Shown one piece after another: positions 13,895 to 31,060 of a stretch of DNA of 64,000 nt. A model generated the notes under the pieces. It had not been told where the DNA came from. It worked only from the letters and a program-made list of their open reading frames with translations, and ran no database searches. How positions within the stretch are numbered: the stretch's first letter is position 1; each line of letters starts with the position of its first letter. This stretch comes from Planctomycetota bacterium (GTDB lineage Bacteria; Planctomycetota; Phycisphaerae; Phycisphaerales; UBA1924). The position numbers and the translations under genes are program-made. The stretch is from contig JBCBHW010000002.1 in assembly GCA_038525225.1 (NCBI GenBank), positions 488,007 to 552,006 of the forward strand, given 5' to 3'.

Positions 13895-15745
<1,851 letters not shown>

Positions 15746-17604: not shown

Positions 17605-19308
17605 TTATGCTTTACTGCTGACAGCCGCGAGTAAGCGGTCAATCCGTGAGAGCGCTCGGTCGCGCCCCAGAGACGACAGCGTCACGCCCAGCGGGGGGCT
17701 GACGGCGCTGCCTGTGAGGGCGACGCGGATGGGCTGGGCAAGTTTGCCAAGCTTGGTTTCGCGCGATTCGCAGAACGACGCGGCGAGCGCCTCGATCGCG
17801 TCGGGCGTGAAGTCGGTGAGCGTGTTCAGCTCATCGCGGAACGCGGCGAGCAGCGCCAGCCCCGATGGCTCGCCCTTGAGCACGTGCTTTTTGACGGCCT
17901 TGTCGTCGTGCTCGATCGAATCGTCATCGGCGAACAGGAACGCGATCGGCTGGCGGCACTCGCTTAGGACGGCCGCCCGCTGCTGGATCGCCGGCGCGAG
18001 CATGAGCATTGTCTCGGCCGACAGCTCGGTCAGGATCGCCTGGTCATACCGCTCGGCCCACGTGCGCCACGCGAGCACCAACTCGGCCGGCTCCATCGCC
18101 TGGATCGTGTCGAAGTTGAACGCCCGCAGCTTGTCGCGGTCGAACTTGCTGGCGGTCTTGCCGACGCGGTCGAAGGCGAAGTGCTGGTCGAGGTAGGCTC
18201 GGCCGAAGCGTTCGAGGTCCTTGCCGTCGTCGGTTTTGACGCCGGGGTTCCAGCCGAGCAGGGCGATGTAGTTGATGACGACGTCGGGCAGGTAGCCGGA
18301 CCTGCGGAAATCCTCGACGTCGATCTCGGGCAGCTCGACCTGTAGCTGGGTTGCGATGGCGATCAGGCGATCCTGCGGCAGCTGAACGGTCTTGTCTTTG
18401 AGCCACTTGGCGAAGTGCTTCTGCTCGTCGGCGCTGCCGGCGTTTGCGAGGGCCTCCTGCACACCCGCGGCCTGCTTGACCGCGGCGCGGACGGCCTTGT
18501 CCTTGTCGCGCTTGCTCATCTTCGAGCCGTCGGGGTTGAAGATCAGCGGCAGGTGCGCGAACGTGGGTTCCCCGAAACCGAGCGCCTTCATCAAGGCGAT
18601 GTGGCGGGGCGTGTTGTTGAGGTGCTCCTGGCCTCGCACGACGTGGGTGACGCCCATCTCGTGATCGTCGACGACGACAGCGAAGTGGTAGGTGGGAAAG
18701 CCGTCTTTCTTGCGGATGACCAGGTCGTCGAGCTCTTCGTAGGGGAAGGTCACCTCGCCGAGGATCTGGTCGTGCACGGTCACGGGCTCGGGCGGCATCT
18801 TGAAGCGGAGCACGTGCTCGTCGGTCTCGGCACGGTTGAGCGCCGCGGCGTGGTCGTAGCCGTCGGGCTGGCGGTAGATGAAGGTCTTCTTCTCCGCCTC
18901 GGCGGCCTTGCGCATTGCGGCGAGCTCGTCGGGGGTTTCGAAGGCCGGGTAGGCCAGTTCCGCGTCGAGCAGCTGCTTGAAGAAGCGGTCGTAGTGCTCA
19001 CGGCGTTGGGACTGGTGGAAGGGGCCAACGCTGCGTGCGTCGCCGCCGAAGCTGCCTGCTGGGGTGGCGTGTTCTGGGCCGTCGTCCCAGCCGATGCCGA
19101 GCCAGGCGAGGTCTTCGAGGATGCCCACGGCTGCGGCCTCGCTCGATCGTTTCTGGTCGGTGTCTTCGATGCGCAGGACGAATCGGCCCGACTGGCCTCG
19201 GGCGTAGGCGGCGCAGAAGAGGGCGGTGCGGGCGCCGCCGATGTGGAGGTGGCCCGTGGGGCTCGGGGCGAAGCGTGTGACGGGCAGGTTTGCTGGCTGG
19301 TCGGACAT
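17605..19308 (-). CDS. gltX: glutamate--tRNA ligase
   Basis: RFAPSPTGHLHIGGARTALF (HIGH motif) and KMSKR. 567 aa. Confidence 0.9.
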   Translation of the reverse strand: MSDQPANLPVTRFAPSPTGHLHIGGARTALFCAAYARGQSGRFVLRIEDTDQKRSSEAAAVGILEDLAWLGIGWDDGPEHATPAGSFGGDARSVGPFHQSQRREHYDRFFKQLLDAELAYPAFETPDELAAMRKAAEAEKKTFIYRQPDGYDHAAALNRAETDEHVLRFKMPPEPVTVHDQILGEVTFPYEELDDLVIRKKDGFPTYHFAVVVDDHEMGVTHVVRGQEHLNNTPRHIALMKALGFGEPTFAHLPLIFNPDGSKMSKRDKDKAVRAAVKQAAGVQEALANAGSADEQKHFAKWLKDKTVQLPQDRLIAIATQLQVELPEIDVEDFRRSGYLPDVVINYIALLGWNPGVKTDDGKDLERFGRAYLDQHFAFDRVGKTASKFDRDKLRAFNFDTIQAMEPAELVLAWRTWAERYDQAILTELSAETMLMLAPAIQQRAAVLSECRQPIAFLFADDDSIEHDDKAVKKHVLKGEPSGLALLAAFRDELNTLTDFTPDAIEALAASFCESRETKLGKLAQPIRVALTGSAVSPPLGVTLSSLGRDRALSRIDRLLAAVSSKA

Positions 19309-19354: not shown

Positions 19355-19363
19355 TGGTATAGT
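19355..19363 (+). promoter_or_regulatory. candidate extended -10 element (TGgTATAGT) followed by a GGAGG-attt-CCTCC hairpin in the ~140-nt leader of the EF-G-like gene
   Basis: A TGnTATAAT-like string sits in an otherwise GC-rich 198-bp divergent intergenic region. Purely sequence-based. Confidence 0.25.
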
Positions 19364-19506
19364 GGACAGGTTCGGAGGATTTCCCTCCCAGCGACATCTC
19401 ACCCGGGCCGATGCGCCCATCCGCGCTGTGCGTCAACGGCGCGACCATCCGATCGGCCCACAGGCCTCGCCTTCAAGAACGCGGGGACGAAAGGAGCGCC
19501 GAAACG

Positions 19507-21612
19507 ATGGCCACTCAAGCTCACGCTGGTGCACGCGCCGCCGAGGAAATCCGAAACGTGGCGCTGGTCGGCCAGGGTGGTTCGGGGAAGACCACCCTCA
19601 CCGAGCGGCTCCTTTTCGATGCCGGCGTGATCCAGCGAATGGGCACGGTCGAGGATGGCAACACCGTCAGCGACTTCACCGAAGAAGAGCACCACCACCA
19701 CCACTCGCTGGGTCTCGCGATGACCCACTTCGAGACCGAGAGCCGGCTGTCGGGCCGCAAGGTCCTGGTGAATCTGCTCGACACGCCGGGCATGACGGAC
19801 TTTCTTGGTCACGCGATCGCCGCGCTGCCGGCGGTTGACACCGTCGCGGTCGTGATCGACCCGGCCAAGGGCATCGGCACGGTGACCCGGCGCATGTTCG
19901 CGATCGCAAAGGACCGCAACCTGCCGCGGTGCATCATCGTCGATAAGATTGACGAGAGCGGCATCGACCTCGCAGCGACTGTCGAGCAGATCCGCGAGCA
20001 GTTTGGGACCGAGTGCCTGCCCATTAACCTGCCGGCCGGCGACGGGGTCGTGAACGTATTCGAGCACGAGCATGCCGAGGGCGTGGAGCCCGGGTTCTCG
20101 TCGGTCGAAGAGGCGCACCAGCAGATTCTTGAGCAGGTCGTCGAGGTGAACGACGAGCTGACCGAGACGTACTTCGAGGGCGGCCAGCTCGACCCGAAGA
20201 AGCTGCACGAGGCTTTCGAAGAGTGCCTGCGTCAGGGTCACCTCGTTCCGATCTGCTTCTGCTCGGCCAAGACCGGCGCGGGCATCGACGATCTGTCGCA
20301 TGTGATCGCCGACTACCTGCCCAGCCCGCTCGAGGGGAACCCGAGGCCCTTCGTCAACGAAGACGACGACGGCAACGAGACCGATTACCCGCACACGCCC
20401 GATGCCGGGAAGCCGCTGCTCGCGCACGTGTTCAAGGTCAAGGCGGATGCACACTTCGGCAAGCTCGGCGTGTTTCGCGTGCACCAGGGCACGATCAAGG
20501 CCAAGGACGAGGTGTTCATCGGGGCGAACAAGAAGGCCGTGCGTATTGCGCACCTTTACAAGCGGCAGGGGGCGAAGTCGATCGAGGTCGATGCGCTCGA
20601 GCCGGGCGATATCGGGGCGATCGCCAAGATTGATGATGTTCACTTCGGGTCGGTTTTGCACGGTGATCACGACGCGGACCGCGTGCATCTCAAGAAGCTG
20701 CCAATGCCCAAGCCGATGTTTGGGCTCGCGATCGAGCTCAAGAACCACAAGGACGAGAGCAAGTTTGCGCCGGCCACGCACAAGATGATGGAGGAGGATC
20801 CGTGCCTGGTCATCGAGCGTGTCGAGGCGACGGCCGAGACCGTGATGCGAGGGCTGGGCGAGCTGCACCTGCGCGTCGTGCGCGAGAAGCTGCACGAGCA
20901 GTACGGCATCGAGGTCGAGACCGCGCCGCCCAAGGTGGCGTACAAGGAGACGATCACAGGCTCGGCCGAGGCGACGCACCGGCACAAGAAGCAGTCCGGC
21001 GGCTCGGGCGAGTTCGGCGAGGTGCATCTGAGAGTGTCACCGATGGAGATCGATGCGACGCTCGGCGACGAGCCGACGTTTGAATTTGTCAACGCAACCG
21101 TGGGCGGTTCGATCCCCAAGCAGTTCATGCCGGCGATCGAGAAGGGCGTGCGGGAGGTGCTGAAGACCGGGGCGTTCGCGGGCTATCCGCTCACGGGTGT
21201 TCGCGTCGAGGTCTTTGACGGCAAGCACCACCCGGTGGACTCGAAAGAGGTCGCGTTCATCAAGGCCGGCAAGCGGGCGTTCATCGAGGCGGTCAACAAG
21301 GCCCGGCCCACGCTGCTCGAGCCTTTCGTGCATCTCGAGGTCACGGCGCCGAGCTCGTCTATGGGCGACATCACTGGCGACCTGTCGACGAAGCGAGGGC
21401 GGGTGCAGGACACCGACATGCTCGGGGCCGACATCGTGATCGTGAAGGCCGAGGCGCCGCTGAGTGAGCTGCAGAACTACTCGACGATGCTCAAGAGCAT
21501 GACGGGCGGGGCCGGCAGCTACACGATGGATTTCAGTCACACGGAGCAGACGCCGCCGAACGTGCAGCAGGAGGTGATGGCCAGCTTCGCGGGGCACGGT
21601 GACGAGGACTGA
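19507..21612 (+). CDS. elongation factor G-like translational GTPase paralog with degenerate GTPase motifs
   Basis: ORF 19411..21612, trimmed to MATQAH (ATG at 19507). AAAGGAG lies 12 nt upstream. Five-domain EF-G architecture, 701 aa. P-loop is GQGGSGKTT. G3 is DTPGMTDF (Met in place of the catalytic His). G4 is VDKID. Confidence 0.8.
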   Translation: MATQAHAGARAAEEIRNVALVGQGGSGKTTLTERLLFDAGVIQRMGTVEDGNTVSDFTEEEHHHHHSLGLAMTHFETESRLSGRKVLVNLLDTPGMTDFLGHAIAALPAVDTVAVVIDPAKGIGTVTRRMFAIAKDRNLPRCIIVDKIDESGIDLAATVEQIREQFGTECLPINLPAGDGVVNVFEHEHAEGVEPGFSSVEEAHQQILEQVVEVNDELTETYFEGGQLDPKKLHEAFEECLRQGHLVPICFCSAKTGAGIDDLSHVIADYLPSPLEGNPRPFVNEDDDGNETDYPHTPDAGKPLLAHVFKVKADAHFGKLGVFRVHQGTIKAKDEVFIGANKKAVRIAHLYKRQGAKSIEVDALEPGDIGAIAKIDDVHFGSVLHGDHDADRVHLKKLPMPKPMFGLAIELKNHKDESKFAPATHKMMEEDPCLVIERVEATAETVMRGLGELHLRVVREKLHEQYGIEVETAPPKVAYKETITGSAEATHRHKKQSGGSGEFGEVHLRVSPMEIDATLGDEPTFEFVNATVGGSIPKQFMPAIEKGVREVLKTGAFAGYPLTGVRVEVFDGKHHPVDSKEVAFIKAGKRAFIEAVNKARPTLLEPFVHLEVTAPSSSMGDITGDLSTKRGRVQDTDMLGADIVIVKAEAPLSELQNYSTMLKSMTGGAGSYTMDFSHTEQTPPNVQQEVMASFAGHGDED

Positions 21613-21812: not shown

Positions 21813-22172
21813 ATGGACCGCATCGATACCTCACTGCTGTCATCGCTCACGATGAAGCCCGCGGGCAGGGCCGGGAACACGGTCGGGCCTCGGCTGGTCG
21901 ATCCGTCGCCCCGGCTGCGGATGGTGGATCGCCGTGACACGGTCGAACTCGGCGCACGGAACAAGGTTCAGAACGTTGCTGCCAATCCGCTGGTGGCGGG
22001 TACCGTGGGCACGGCCGCCGTCGCAGCACCGGTCGCGCCGGCGACGCCCGCTGCGAAGTCCGTCGCCGCCAACGCCGCGATGCGGATGTACGCCTCGCCG
22101 GCTGACCAGAACGCAGCGGCCACTCGGATGGCTTCCAACGCGACCGGCTCGACGCTGGACGTGACCGCGTGA
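21813..22172 (+). CDS. hypothetical Ala-rich protein
   Basis: 119-aa ORF with GGAGG 11 nt upstream. Its stop overlaps the next gene's GTG start (GTGA). Confidence 0.4.
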   Translation: MDRIDTSLLSSLTMKPAGRAGNTVGPRLVDPSPRLRMVDRRDTVELGARNKVQNVAANPLVAGTVGTAAVAAPVAPATPAAKSVAANAAMRMYASPADQNAAATRMASNATGSTLDVTA

Positions 22173-23437
22173 GTCGGGCTCGCCCCGACCCGAGCCCGCT
22201 TGCGCATCACTTCGGGCTCGATCCAGACATCGTCTTTCTCAATCACGGCTCGTTCGGCTCGTGCCCCGCGTCGGTGATCGCGGCTCAGCAGCGGCACCGC
22301 GATCTGATGGAGCGCGAGCCGGTGTCGTTCTTTATGAAGACTGCTTTCGAGCTGATGGACCACTCACGGGCAGCGGTGGCGGGGCTCATCGGTGGCAACG
22401 CCGAGGACTACGTGTTCGTCAGCAACGCGACGGTTGCGGTGAACACGATCTTCGAGAACGCGGCGACCGGGCTCGGGCTTGCCGAGGATCGGCCGCTTGG
22501 ACCGGGCGATGAGATCCTGGTCAATAGTCTGGAGTACCCGGCGTGCATGGCGAACGCACGTCGGCTGGCCGAGCGTACGGGCGCATCGCTGCGCATCGTC
22601 GACATTGCTCGGCTCGACGGCGCGATGACGCCCGCATGCTTCACTGCGTTGCTGATGGCGGGCGTGACTGATCGCACACGGTTGTGCCTCTTGAGCCACG
22701 TCATCAGCCCGACCGGCTGGGTGCTGCCAGCGGCCGAGGTCATCCGCGAGCTGGAAGCACGCGGGGTGACCACGGTCCTCGACGGCGCGCACGGGCCGGG
22801 GTGCATCCCAATCGATCTCGACTCGATCAAACCCGCGTTCTACACGGCCAACGCACACAAGTGGCTCTGTGCGCCGAAGGGGGCGGCGATCCTGTACGTC
22901 AGGCCTGATCTGCAACAACGGTTCCGCCCGCAGACGCTGAGCGTGTACGACGAAGCGCCGGCGGGCTTTCTCGATCGCTCGCGGTACAACCGCGACTTTG
23001 ATTATGTGGGTACCGATGACGTGAGTGCCAGGCTCGCCGTCGCCGATGCGATCGAGTTCGTGCCCGAGATCGCAGGCGTTTCTTGGGCCGACATTGTCAA
23101 ACGAAACAATGCGCTGGCAATGGAAGCCGCCGATCTGCTCAGGGATCGGCTGGGCACCGATCCGTGCCAGACCGACGACATGGTCGGGCCCATGGCAATG
23201 ATCGAGCTTCCGACGATGCCCGAGACACACCGCGAGCGGCTTGAAGCTCGGCCCAAGGTGTACCTCGATGCGTTGCAGGATGCGCTCTTTGAGCGGCACG
23301 GCATCCAGGTGCCCGTGTACTCAATCGGCGAGGGTCGGCGGTACGTGCGCATCAGCGTGCAGGTGTACAACACGATCGGGCAGTACGATTACCTGGGGAG
23401 CGCGCTGCTCGAAGAGCTCGATCGAGAAGTGCGATAG
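22169..23437 (+). CDS. class V (fold type I) PLP-dependent aminotransferase/desulfurase-like enzyme (isopenicillin N epimerase-like)
   Basis: LNHGSFGSCP N-terminal signature and AHKWLCAPKG lysine region. 422 aa. GTG start. Confidence 0.8.
   Translation: MSRARPDPSPLAHHFGLDPDIVFLNHGSFGSCPASVIAAQQRHRDLMEREPVSFFMKTAFELMDHSRAAVAGLIGGNAEDYVFVSNATVAVNTIFENAATGLGLAEDRPLGPGDEILVNSLEYPACMANARRLAERTGASLRIVDIARLDGAMTPACFTALLMAGVTDRTRLCLLSHVISPTGWVLPAAEVIRELEARGVTTVLDGAHGPGCIPIDLDSIKPAFYTANAHKWLCAPKGAAILYVRPDLQQRFRPQTLSVYDEAPAGFLDRSRYNRDFDYVGTDDVSARLAVADAIEFVPEIAGVSWADIVKRNNALAMEAADLLRDRLGTDPCQTDDMVGPMAMIELPTMPETHRERLEARPKVYLDALQDALFERHGIQVPVYSIGEGRRYVRISVQVYNTIGQYDYLGSALLEELDREVR

Positions 23438-29653: not shown

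Positions 29654-31060
<1,407 letters not shown>

What the first reader, a model, noticed from the sequence alone, without database searches (positions are those of the whole stretch)
19507..21612. EF-G paralog with the catalytic His of DTPGH replaced by Met, Asn of NKxD replaced by Asp, and a His5 run in switch I
The protein has the full five-domain EF-G layout. Its G motifs, however, are P-loop GQGGSGKTT (canonical AHIDAGKTT), switch I ...DFTEEEHHHHHSLGL (where EF-G has ...QEQERGITITSA), G3 LDTPGMTDF (codon ATG at 19792-19794 where all translational GTPases have His), and G4 IVDKID (NKxD expected). The His in DTPGH is the residue positioned by the sarcin-ricin loop to activate GTP hydrolysis. 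Its loss predicts a ribosome-binding but hydrolysis-deficient, or very slow, factor. That profile fits a regulatory, ribosome-hibernation or ribosome-protection type role rather than translocation. The gene is not in the canonical rpsL-rpsG-fusA-tuf context and has a ~140-nt structured leader.
Basis: partly seen in the sequence, partly recalled or inferred. Interest (0 to 1): 0.65.

Follow-up and report, generated by a model that had tools for sequence, protein, structure and literature searches.

The report
EF-G2-type elongation factor paralog
This gene encodes a second, divergent copy of ribosomal elongation factor G from a known subfamily (EFG II / EF-G2) in which the catalytic histidine is normally missing, so the odd motifs are real but typical of that subfamily.

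Summary
The ORF 19507-21612 (+), 701 aa, is real.

It is not an aberrant canonical EF-G. It belongs to the EFG II (EF-G2) subfamily:
- It passes NCBIfam NF009891 and NF009381 and fails the canonical EF-G model.
- Its best solved relatives are T. thermophilus EF-G-2 and Bacteroides EF-G2.
- It carries the EFG II signature residues.
- In a tree it sits in a 100%-bootstrap clade with Planctomycetota and beta/gamma-proteobacterial EFG II proteins.

Loss of the catalytic His is the rule in this subfamily. Among the 136 nearest cluster representatives with a readable G3 motif, 72 have Tyr, 22 Phe and 5 His. The His-Ser-Leu switch I is a described EFG II variant. Only DKID, fixed in relatives of at least 80% identity, and the full His5 run are special to this clade.

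The gene is under strong purifying selection (dN/dS about 0.1), with conserved synteny and a conserved leader.

Best reading: a GTP-binding, hydrolysis-poor accessory translation factor like Bacteroides or Mycobacterium EF-G2.

I could not check whether the same genome also has a canonical or spd-type EF-G.

Verdict: new member of a known kind, modest interest.

The parts
19507..21612 (+). CDS of the EFG II (EF-G2-type) paralog, 701 aa plus stop
   Evidence: ORF and translation. Same gene call in GCA_039816565.1. Five EF-G Pfam domains. NF009891 822 bits against a cut-off of 597.
19570..19596 (+). G1 / P-loop GQGGSGKTT (residues 22-30). Gly22 and the following Leu31 are EFG II signature positions. 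The canonical His, Ile and Asp of AHIDAGKT are replaced by Gln, Gly and Gly.
   Evidence: Sequence. Column profiles G22 52/52, G25 51/52, L31 52/52. Gly16/Leu25 rule of Margus 2011.
19690..19710 (+). Switch I / G2 HHHHHSL (H62-L68), replacing canonical ERGITI. Ser67 is the Mg-coordinating position.
   Evidence: Alignment to solved EF-G and EF-G2 structures. H64 51/52, H66 49/52, S67 51/52, L68 51/52. 'xxHSL' EFG II variant. Also seen in proteobacterial relatives.
19780..19803 (+). G3 / switch II DTPGMTDF (D92-F99). Met96 (19792-19794) sits at the catalytic-His position.
   Evidence: The position is L38 M9 T3 R1 S1 in the family alignment, and Y72 F22 A10 L6 S5 H5 and others in the nearest representatives.
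19942..19953 (+). G4 DKID (D146-D149), with Asp in place of the Asn of NKxD
   Evidence: D in 8 of 52 and N in 43 of 52. Fixed in all 10 relatives of at least 80% identity; the sister clade has NKID or TKID. No D among the 75 representatives where G4 was read.
20263..20271 (+). G5 SAK (S253-K255)
   Evidence: S253 invariant, A254 49/52.
20986..21021 (+). Domain IV loop I, KKQSGGSGEFGE (494-505), the tip that reaches the decoding centre in EF-G
   Evidence: Invariant K494 K495 Q496 G498 G499 G501 F503 G504 E505. Aligns to KQSGGRGQYG of canonical EF-G and KKQSGGAGQFGE of Bacteroides EF-G2.
21229..21243 (+). Domain IV loop II, HPVDS (575-579), equivalent to HxVDSS of EF-G
   Evidence: Invariant H575 V577 D578 S579. 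Alignments.
19355..19363 (+). Putative extended -10 promoter element TGgTATAGT
   Evidence: Conserved in relatives down to about 74% protein identity. The consensus scan found no full sigma-70 site because there is no -35 match. Inferred, not shown.
19370..19506 (+). Putative 5' leader of about 137 nt. It contains a 5' hairpin (19370-19392), a palindromic hairpin (19405-19418), and a hairpin (19465-19486) directly upstream of the SD (19490-19496).
   Evidence: Alignments A3 and A4. RNAalifold. Per-sequence folds. Pair counts 90.9% paired against at most 57% when slid, with 5 of 500 shuffles reaching the covariation score. No Rfam match. Single-sequence z-score -1.22.

Best explanation
The gene encodes an EFG II (EF-G2-type) paralog of elongation factor G. 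It belongs to the Planctomycetota plus beta/gamma-proteobacterial 'xxHSL' branch.

Inferred mechanism: it binds GTP-Mg. The P-loop Lys/Thr, Ser67, DxPG, KxD and SAK are all kept. It binds the ribosomal factor site with a normal five-domain EF-G body and an intact domain IV tip. It lacks the canonical sarcin-ricin-loop-triggered hydrolysis machinery, so it hydrolyses GTP slowly or not at all.

The most likely role is an accessory factor that supports slow, hydrolysis-independent translocation when energy is limiting, as Bacteroides EF-G2 does. The main alternative is a brake on post-translocation ribosomes, as in Mycobacterium EF-G2.

Shown: family membership, motif states, selection and synteny. 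Inferred by analogy: nucleotide binding, lack of GTPase activity and physiological role.
For: Family membership:
- NF009891 822 bits (cut-off 597) and NF009381 799 bits (cut-off 583). Canonical TIGR00484 scores 464, below its cut-off of 659.
- Relatives from Ralstonia, Pseudomonas and Isosphaeraceae also pass NF009891. A Thermus EF-G-2-like protein passes NF009381.
- The top PDB sequence and fold hits are T. thermophilus EF-G-2 (1WDT) and B. thetaiotaomicron EF-G2 (8DMF/7UVP).
- EFG II signature residues Gly16, Leu25, Gly333 and Lys352 (1WDT numbering) correspond to G22, L31, G355 and K374. All four are invariant.
- G2 has Ser in the xxHSL form.
- In an NJ tree, canonical EF-Gs split from all others with 100% bootstrap. 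The window protein lies in a 100% clade with Planctomycetota and beta/gamma-proteobacterial EFG II.

His loss is family-wide.

The gene is functional. dN/dS is about 0.10-0.17, including the G domain. Mean column identity is 72% across 52 Phycisphaerae homologs. Synteny is conserved.

Analogues:
- MsmEF-G2 has His->Tyr, N->T in G4 and a GPSGG P-loop. It shows no ribosome-dependent GTPase and traps post-translocation ribosomes under stress.
- Bt EF-G2 translocates without GTP hydrolysis and is induced by carbon limitation.
- Domain IV loops are invariant and match those of Bt EF-G2.
Against: - No biochemistry exists for any member of this branch.
[quoted passage not shown] The motif state therefore does not prove a dead GTPase.
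- His64 and His66 in switch I are near-invariant. They could supply alternative catalysis.
- Asp146 in place of the NKxD Asn has no characterised precedent among the relatives examined. It could weaken or alter nucleotide binding.
- The protein is no closer to Bt EF-G2 than to MsmEF-G2 or Tth EF-G-2, so the choice among their three behaviours is open.
- It lacks the domain IV insertion seen in Bt EF-G2.
Confidence: 0.5

Rival explanations
1. Stress-time ribosome brake. Like M. smegmatis EF-G2, the factor binds post-translocation 70S ribosomes in the GTP form and does not leave. This slows or parks translation and does not promote translocation.
For: It shares the catalytic substitutions of MsmEF-G2: non-His in G3, non-Asn in G4 and a glycine-rich P-loop. 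The conserved leader could give conditional expression.
Against: In MsmEF-G2 the domain IV loops are displaced from the tRNA. Here the loop sequences are invariant and canonical-like. The PDB bit score to MsmEF-G2 (334) is lower than to Tth EF-G-2 (405) or Bt EF-G2 (394). There are no expression data.
Confidence: 0.22
2. Active GTPase with relocated catalysis. The factor still hydrolyses GTP, as T. thermophilus EF-G-2 does. It would use conserved switch I histidines (His64 and/or His66) or another residue in place of the switch II His, and would act as a second genuine translocase.
For: Tth EF-G-2 has Tyr at the His position and His at -3 of the Mg-Thr (LHRTTV). It hydrolyses GTP and has higher intrinsic GTPase than EF-G-1. 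H64 is present in 51 of 52 and H66 in 49 of 52 family members. His at -1 of the Mg-Ser is shared with the proteobacterial relatives. The G domain is under purifying selection as strong as the rest of the protein. Acidic G' residues E209 and E213 are invariant.
Against: The H88Y change in M. smegmatis EF-G1 nearly abolishes GTPase activity. The P-loop Asp used for the monovalent cation in translational GTPases is Gly here (my knowledge of the Kuhle and Ficner mechanism). The correlation rests on a single active example. No coordinates were available to measure His66-to-gamma-phosphate geometry.
Confidence: 0.2
3. Dedicated ribosome-recycling factor, with translocation and recycling split between paralogs as in spdEFG2/mtEFG2 or Borrelia EF-G2.
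For: Planctomycetes are known to split EF-G functions between spdEFG1 and spdEFG2.
Against: The bit score to mtEFG2 (233) is far below the scores to the EF-G2/EFG II structures. mtEFG2 keeps the catalytic His and conserved G motifs. MsmEF-G2, an EFG II protein, cannot recycle ribosomes. The tree places the protein in EFG II.
Confidence: 0.05
4. Decaying or non-functional duplicate whose G domain has lost its function.
For: Several catalytic residues are replaced at once.
Against: dN/dS is about 0.1 in the G domain. Nucleotide-binding residues are invariant. The family is found across many Phycisphaerae genomes with conserved synteny.
Confidence: 0.02

Closest known systems
EFG II subfamily of EF-G paralogs (Margus et al. 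2011, PMC3150367; Atkinson 2015, PMC4342817); NCBIfam NF009891 / NF009381
   Same: Five-domain EF-G architecture. G1 begins with Gly and is followed by Leu. G2 is relaxed to xxxSx, here in the xxHSL form described for beta/gamma-proteobacteria. DxPG and SAx are kept. Gly333 and Lys352 equivalents are present. The gene lies outside the str operon. It passes both NCBIfam cut-offs and has 46-51% identity to proteobacterial members.
   Different: G4 is DKID here and in relatives of at least 80% identity, whereas EFG II normally has NKxD. The switch I histidines are expanded to a run of five. The Phycisphaerae branch is more conserved (about 63% identity across the group) than the fast-evolving picture given for EFG II.
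Bacteroides thetaiotaomicron EF-G2 (PDB 8DMF/7UVP; Han et al. 2023, known to me and cited)
   Same: No catalytic His (Ser there, Met here). Glycine/serine-rich P-loop. Ser in G2. Domain IV loops KKQSGGxGxFGE and HPVDS are nearly identical. About 32% identity overall, with 394 bits.
   Different: Fails the NF058620 cut-off (475 against 1000). G2 is YGYSV, not HHHSL. Bt EF-G2 has a long domain IV insertion that is absent here. It sits on a different branch of the tree.
Thermus thermophilus EF-G-2 (PDB 1WDT)
   Same: Best PDB hit by sequence (405 bits) and by fold. Non-His (Tyr) in G3. His at -3 of the Mg-binding residue. Same NCBIfam subfamily NF009381.
   Different: TKLD in G4 and Thr rather than Ser in G2. 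About 35% identity. Shown to hydrolyse GTP, which is untested here.
Mycobacterium smegmatis EF-G2 (PDB 9K0Z/9K10)
   Same: The catalytic His is replaced (Tyr). The Asn of NKxD is replaced (Thr there, Asp here). The P-loop His, Ile and Asp are lost. It is a non-essential accessory paralog.
   Different: Lower similarity (334 bits). G2 is qqRSV. Its G5 is not conserved, whereas SAK is kept here. Its domain IV loops are displaced in the structure, whereas the loop sequences here are canonical-like.
Canonical EF-G (EFG I, TIGR00484) and spdEFG1/spdEFG2
   Same: Same fold and domain order. About 30% identity.
   Different: Below the TIGR00484 cut-off. Lacks AHIDAGKT, RGITI and DTPGH. Not next to rpsL-rpsG-tuf. 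Scores to mtEFG1 and mtEFG2 are only 308 and 233 bits.

Membership tests
EFG II (EF-G2-type) subfamily | G1 starts with Gly (Gly16 of 1WDT) and the P-loop ends with Leu (Leu25, 99% conserved in EFG II) | tested here: met
   GQGGSGKTTL. G22 and L31 are invariant in 52 homologs.
EFG II (EF-G2-type) subfamily | G2 RGITI is relaxed to xxxSx, with Ser at the Mg-binding position | tested here: met
   HHHSL, with S67 in 51 of 52. It matches the 'xxHSL' sub-subgroup.
EFG II (EF-G2-type) subfamily | G3 DxPG and G5 SAx are retained | tested here: met
   D92, P94, G95 and S253 are invariant.
EFG II (EF-G2-type) subfamily | G4 NKxD is retained | tested here: not met
   DKID in the window protein and in the 10 relatives of at least 80% identity. 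It is NKID in 43 of 52 family members. This is a clade-specific departure. Thr and Ser also occur at this position in EFG II.
EFG II (EF-G2-type) subfamily | Domain II type I positions Gly333 and Lys352 (1WDT numbering) | tested here: met
   By the alignment these are G355 and K374. Both are invariant.
EFG II (EF-G2-type) subfamily | Phylogenetic placement with EFG II and apart from EFG I | tested here: met
   NJ tree, 65 sequences, 100 bootstraps. The split of canonical EF-G from the rest has 100% support. The window protein lies in a 100% clade with Planctomycetota and beta/gamma EFG II. spdEFG, Tet and others were not in the tree. They were judged only by bit scores.
EFG II (EF-G2-type) subfamily | Co-occurs with EFG I, or with spdEFG1 plus spdEFG2, in the same genome and is never the only EF-G | not testable with these tools
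   There is no second EF-G in the 64-kb window or in any fetched locus. Indirect evidence: Isosphaera pallida has EFGII + spdEFG1 + spdEFG2, and an Isosphaeraceae protein is 51% identical to this one.
NCBIfam NF009891 / NF009381 ('elongation factor G', EF-G2-like PRK13351/PRK12740 groups) | Whole-protein score above the curated cut-off | tested here: met
   822 against 597, and 799 against 583.
Canonical EF-G (TIGR00484, EFG I) | Score above the cut-off; AHIDAGKT, RGITI and DTPGH motifs; str-operon context | tested here: not met
   464 against 659. All three motifs are replaced. The neighbours are gltX and an aminotransferase.
Bacteroides-type EF-G2 (NF058620) and EF-G2 equivalog NF009377 | Score above the curated cut-off | tested here: not met
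   475 against 1000, and 494 against 890.
Tetracycline ribosomal protection proteins (NF012153) | Score above the cut-off | tested here: not met
   284 against 775. TetM and TetO score 163 and 156 bits in the PDB search.

The most novel reading that the evidence does not exclude
In this EFG II branch the catalytic machinery has been relocated, not lost. The near-invariant switch I histidines take over activation or gating of GTP hydrolysis. His64 sits at the Arg position and His66 at the hydrophobic-gate Ile position of RGITI. The factor would then be a ribosome GTPase that does not depend on the sarcin-ricin-loop/His mechanism. Alternatively, these histidines could make nucleotide-state switching sensitive to pH or metal ions. 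A still less likely reading that is not excluded: Phycisphaerae lack any other EF-G and use this protein as their main translocase.
Probability: 0.1. Interest if true: 0.65.

Novelty: new member of a known kind. Interest (0 to 1): 0.3.

Why it matters
EFG II paralogs have only recently been given functions: hydrolysis-free slow translocation in Bacteroides and ribosome trapping in mycobacteria. The one other characterised member, from Thermus, still hydrolyses GTP.

This locus shows that a well-conserved EFG II lineage runs through Phycisphaerae. That lineage has a histidine-rich switch I. One sub-clade additionally replaces the NKxD Asn with Asp, and the gene has a conserved leader.

The lineage could serve as a natural test set for which residues decide whether an EF-G2 hydrolyses GTP. 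It does not overturn anything. The motif changes that drew attention are the subfamily's normal state.

Tried and rejected
1. Shifted motif alignment: rejected. The G3 alignment is ungapped against three solved proteins, and the AF2 model has the EF-G fold.

2. A second EF-G in the window or in 110 fetched loci: none found.

3. Canonical or spd-type EF-G in the same MAG: not achievable.
- The metagenome scan returned only unrelated low-GC EF-G, LepA and EF-2 genes.
- The only canonical EF-G among the 150 representatives is from Dictyoglomus.
- No planctomycete spdEFG sequence was available to seed a search.

4. Han et al. 2023 (PMC9841332) is not held in the library. Its content is cited through papers that cite it, and from my own knowledge.

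5. The Atkinson 2015 consensus-alignment PDF was unreadable as text for the G3 columns.

6. Known RNA family in the leader: none at gathering threshold or at E<=1. The only hit was a chance one, RT-15 at 13 bits.

7. Sigma-70 consensus scan: no hit. The promoter call rests only on a conserved extended -10.

8. Tet-like, RF3, LepA and BipA identities: rejected on scores.

9. Pseudogene: rejected on dN/dS.
Full report
**Observation**

The ORF at 19507-21612 (+) is real. It encodes 701 aa and starts at an ATG preceded by AAAGGAG. The exact protein is deposited as MEL6498912.1, 'MAG: elongation factor G [Planctomycetota bacterium]'. It lies on contig JBCBXN010000001.1 of GCA_039816565.1 with the same gene boundaries.

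Pfam finds GTP_EFTU, EF-G_D2, EFG_III, EFG_IV and EFG_C. All the quoted motifs are present:
- GQGGSGKTT (residues 22-30)
- EEEHHHHHSL (H62-H66, encoded by five CAC codons at 19690-19704)
- DTPGMTDF (M96 = ATG at 19792-19794)
- DKID (146-149)
- SAK (253-255)

Ungapped phmmer alignments to solved structures put M96 opposite the catalytic His of T. thermophilus EF-G. An AlphaFold2 model (pLDDT 84, pTM 0.79) is an EF-G fold. Its best Foldseek hit is T. thermophilus EF-G-2 (1WDT), and B. thetaiotaomicron EF-G2 (8DMF) ranks fourth. The motif alignment is therefore not shifted.

**What it is**

NCBIfam places the protein in NF009891 (822 bits, cut-off 597) and NF009381 (799, cut-off 583). It fails canonical EF-G TIGR00484 (464 against 659), the two named EF-G2 models, and the tetracycline-protection, RF3, LepA and BipA models.

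As a calibration, canonical E. coli EF-G scores 888 bits against Thermus EF-G and 594 against mtEFG1. It scores only 386-408 against the EF-G2 structures. The window protein scores 405, 394 and 384 against Tth EF-G-2, Bt EF-G2 and Tth EF-G. It is as far from canonical EF-G as the recognised EF-G2 proteins are.

It carries the positions that Margus et al. (PMC3150367) use to separate EFG II from EFG I:
- Gly at the first G1 position.
- Leu after GKTT.
- Ser in G2.
- Gly333 and Lys352 of 1WDT, here G355 and K374.
All of these are invariant or near-invariant in 52 homologs.

About 120 close cluster representatives (61-98% identity) come from Phycisphaerae and other Planctomycetota metagenomes and MAGs. 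The next relatives, at 46-51% identity, are beta- and gamma-proteobacterial proteins and an Isosphaeraceae protein. The proteobacterial genera include Ralstonia, Burkholderia, Paraburkholderia, Luteimonas, Variovorax and Pseudomonas sp.. These carry the switch I ending His-Ser-Leu/Ile. That is the 'xxHSL' G2 variant Margus et al. describe for beta/gamma-proteobacterial EFG II. These relatives also pass NF009891, and a Thermus EF-G-2-like protein passes NF009381.

In a neighbour-joining tree of 65 sequences, canonical EF-Gs separate from everything else with 100% bootstrap. The window protein sits in a 100% clade of Planctomycetota plus beta/gamma-proteobacterial EFG II.

**The 'missing' histidine is the family norm**

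- In the 120 close homologs the position is Leu, Met, Thr, Ser, Lys or Arg, and never His.
- In genome relatives it is Tyr 41, Ala 9, Met 8, Leu 6, Ser 4 and His 2; four of the eight Met counts are the window protein's own loci L001-L004.
- In the 150 nearest 50%-identity cluster representatives it is Tyr 72, Phe 22, Ala 10, Leu 6, Ser 5 and His 5. One of the five His cases is a canonical Dictyoglomus EF-G.

The rest of the canonical catalytic set is also replaced across the family:
- P-loop His, Ile and Asp become Gln, Gly/Thr/Ser/Ala and Gly.
- Switch I Arg and Ile become His64 and His66.

A 2026 preprint reports the same kind of substitutions in M. smegmatis EF-G2: His to Tyr98, Asn to Thr in G4, and a GPSGG P-loop. 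It links them to the absence of ribosome-dependent GTPase.

Two features are specific to this clade. Asp146 is fixed in all ten relatives of at least 80% identity, is Asn or Thr in the sister clade, and was not seen in any representative. The other is the full run of five histidines. The wider family has E-K-H-H-K-H-S-L.

**Is it functional?**

Yes, by evolutionary criteria. dN/dS against four relatives is about 0.10-0.17, and the G domain is as constrained as the rest. The nucleotide-binding residues, the acidic G' residues and the two domain IV tip loops (KKQSGGxGxFGE and HxVDS) are invariant.

The neighbourhood is kept down to 63% identity. It consists of gltX (divergent), this gene, a small ORF, a class-V aminotransferase and an M32 carboxypeptidase.

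**Mechanism**

Three EFG II proteins have been characterised.
- T. thermophilus EF-G-2 has Tyr at the His position. It binds and hydrolyses GTP and supports poly(Phe) synthesis.
- M. smegmatis EF-G2 binds nucleotide but has no ribosome-dependent GTPase. It cannot recycle ribosomes, and it traps post-translocation ribosomes under stress.
- B. thetaiotaomicron EF-G2 promotes translocation without GTP hydrolysis. It is strongly induced by carbon limitation (Han et al. 2023, from my knowledge).

I take the most likely reading to be a GTP-binding, hydrolysis-poor accessory factor. Because the domain IV tip is intact, I favour slow hydrolysis-independent translocation (about 0.5) over a pure ribosome brake (about 0.2). 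An active GTPase using other residues is a serious third option (about 0.2). The Thermus protein shows that loss of His is not sufficient to kill hydrolysis, and His64 and His66 are conserved. All three readings are inferences by analogy.

**What could not be tested**

That remains open.

The literature makes a sole EFG II unlikely:
- Single-copy genomes always have EFG I, and genomes lacking EFG I carry spdEFG1 plus spdEFG2.
- Planctomycetes have spdEFG1 plus spdEFG2, and Isosphaera pallida additionally has EFGII.
- Planctopirus has an EF-G gene in its ribosomal gene cluster, whose ribosomal protein genes are almost all essential.

**Leader**

A conserved extended -10 element (TGgTATAGT, 19355-19363) predicts a transcript start near 19370 and a leader of about 137 nt.

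The single sequence does not fold better than shuffles (z = -1.22), and no Rfam family matches. Seven relatives at 80-100% protein identity nonetheless share four elements:
- A 5' hairpin whose stem sequence differs in each relative.
- An invariant palindromic hairpin.
- A hairpin directly upstream of the SD, with a U-A to C-G swap in three of seven.
- A CGGCCC stretch complementary to the SD flank.

In total 90.9% of cells are paired, against at most 57% for slid controls. The covariation score is reached by 5 of 500 shuffles. This is suggestive but weak, given so few related sequences.

**Verdict**

The gene is a new member of the known EFG II/EF-G2 subfamily, with minor clade-specific variations.

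Noticed in passing
window 19355-19506 (+): The 5' region is conserved. It has an extended -10-like TGgTATAGT and a leader of about 137 nt with three hairpins. A CGGCCC stretch is complementary to the SD flank. Some compensatory changes occur across seven relatives, and there is no Rfam family. It could be a translational control element for this EF-G2 gene.
   Followed up: partly
window 19690-19704 (+): The five histidines are encoded by a perfect (CAC)5 repeat. Relatives vary at exactly these codons (HHHHH, RHHHH, HRHRH, HHHQH, KHHKH). His64 and His66 stay fixed.
   Followed up: partly
window 19942-19944 (+), Asp146: The NKxD Asn is replaced by Asp in every relative of at least 80% identity. 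It is Asn or Thr in the sister clade, and Asp was absent from all 75 wider representatives where G4 could be read. The effect on guanine-nucleotide binding is unknown.
   Followed up: partly
window 13895-15745 (-), 17605-19308 (-), 29654-31060 (-): Three aminoacyl-tRNA synthetase genes lie within about 17 kb around the EF-G2 gene: a GlnRS-like gene, GluRS, and a class II Asp/Asn/Lys-type gene. The gltX / EF-G2 divergent pairing is conserved in all relatives of at least 73% identity that were examined.
   Followed up: partly
window 21813-22172 (+) and 22169-23437 (+): A small conserved ORF of 119 aa has no Pfam hit. It overlaps the start of a class-V aminotransferase by 4 nt and follows the EF-G2 gene in most relatives. 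Some relatives have a 313-aa ankyrin-repeat gene inserted between them.
   Followed up: no
P0257/P0281, P0123, P0240, P0266 (representative search); L043, L070: A few EFG II-like proteins do have His in DTPGH while keeping the EFG II-type P-loop. One of them is from a Planctomycetota MAG. They could be reversions or the ancestral state, and would be useful natural controls.
   Followed up: no
window residues 79-84 (about 19741-19758): A six-residue insertion (SRLSGR) lies between the two strands preceding G3. It is present only in the sub-clade of at least 73% identity.
   Followed up: no
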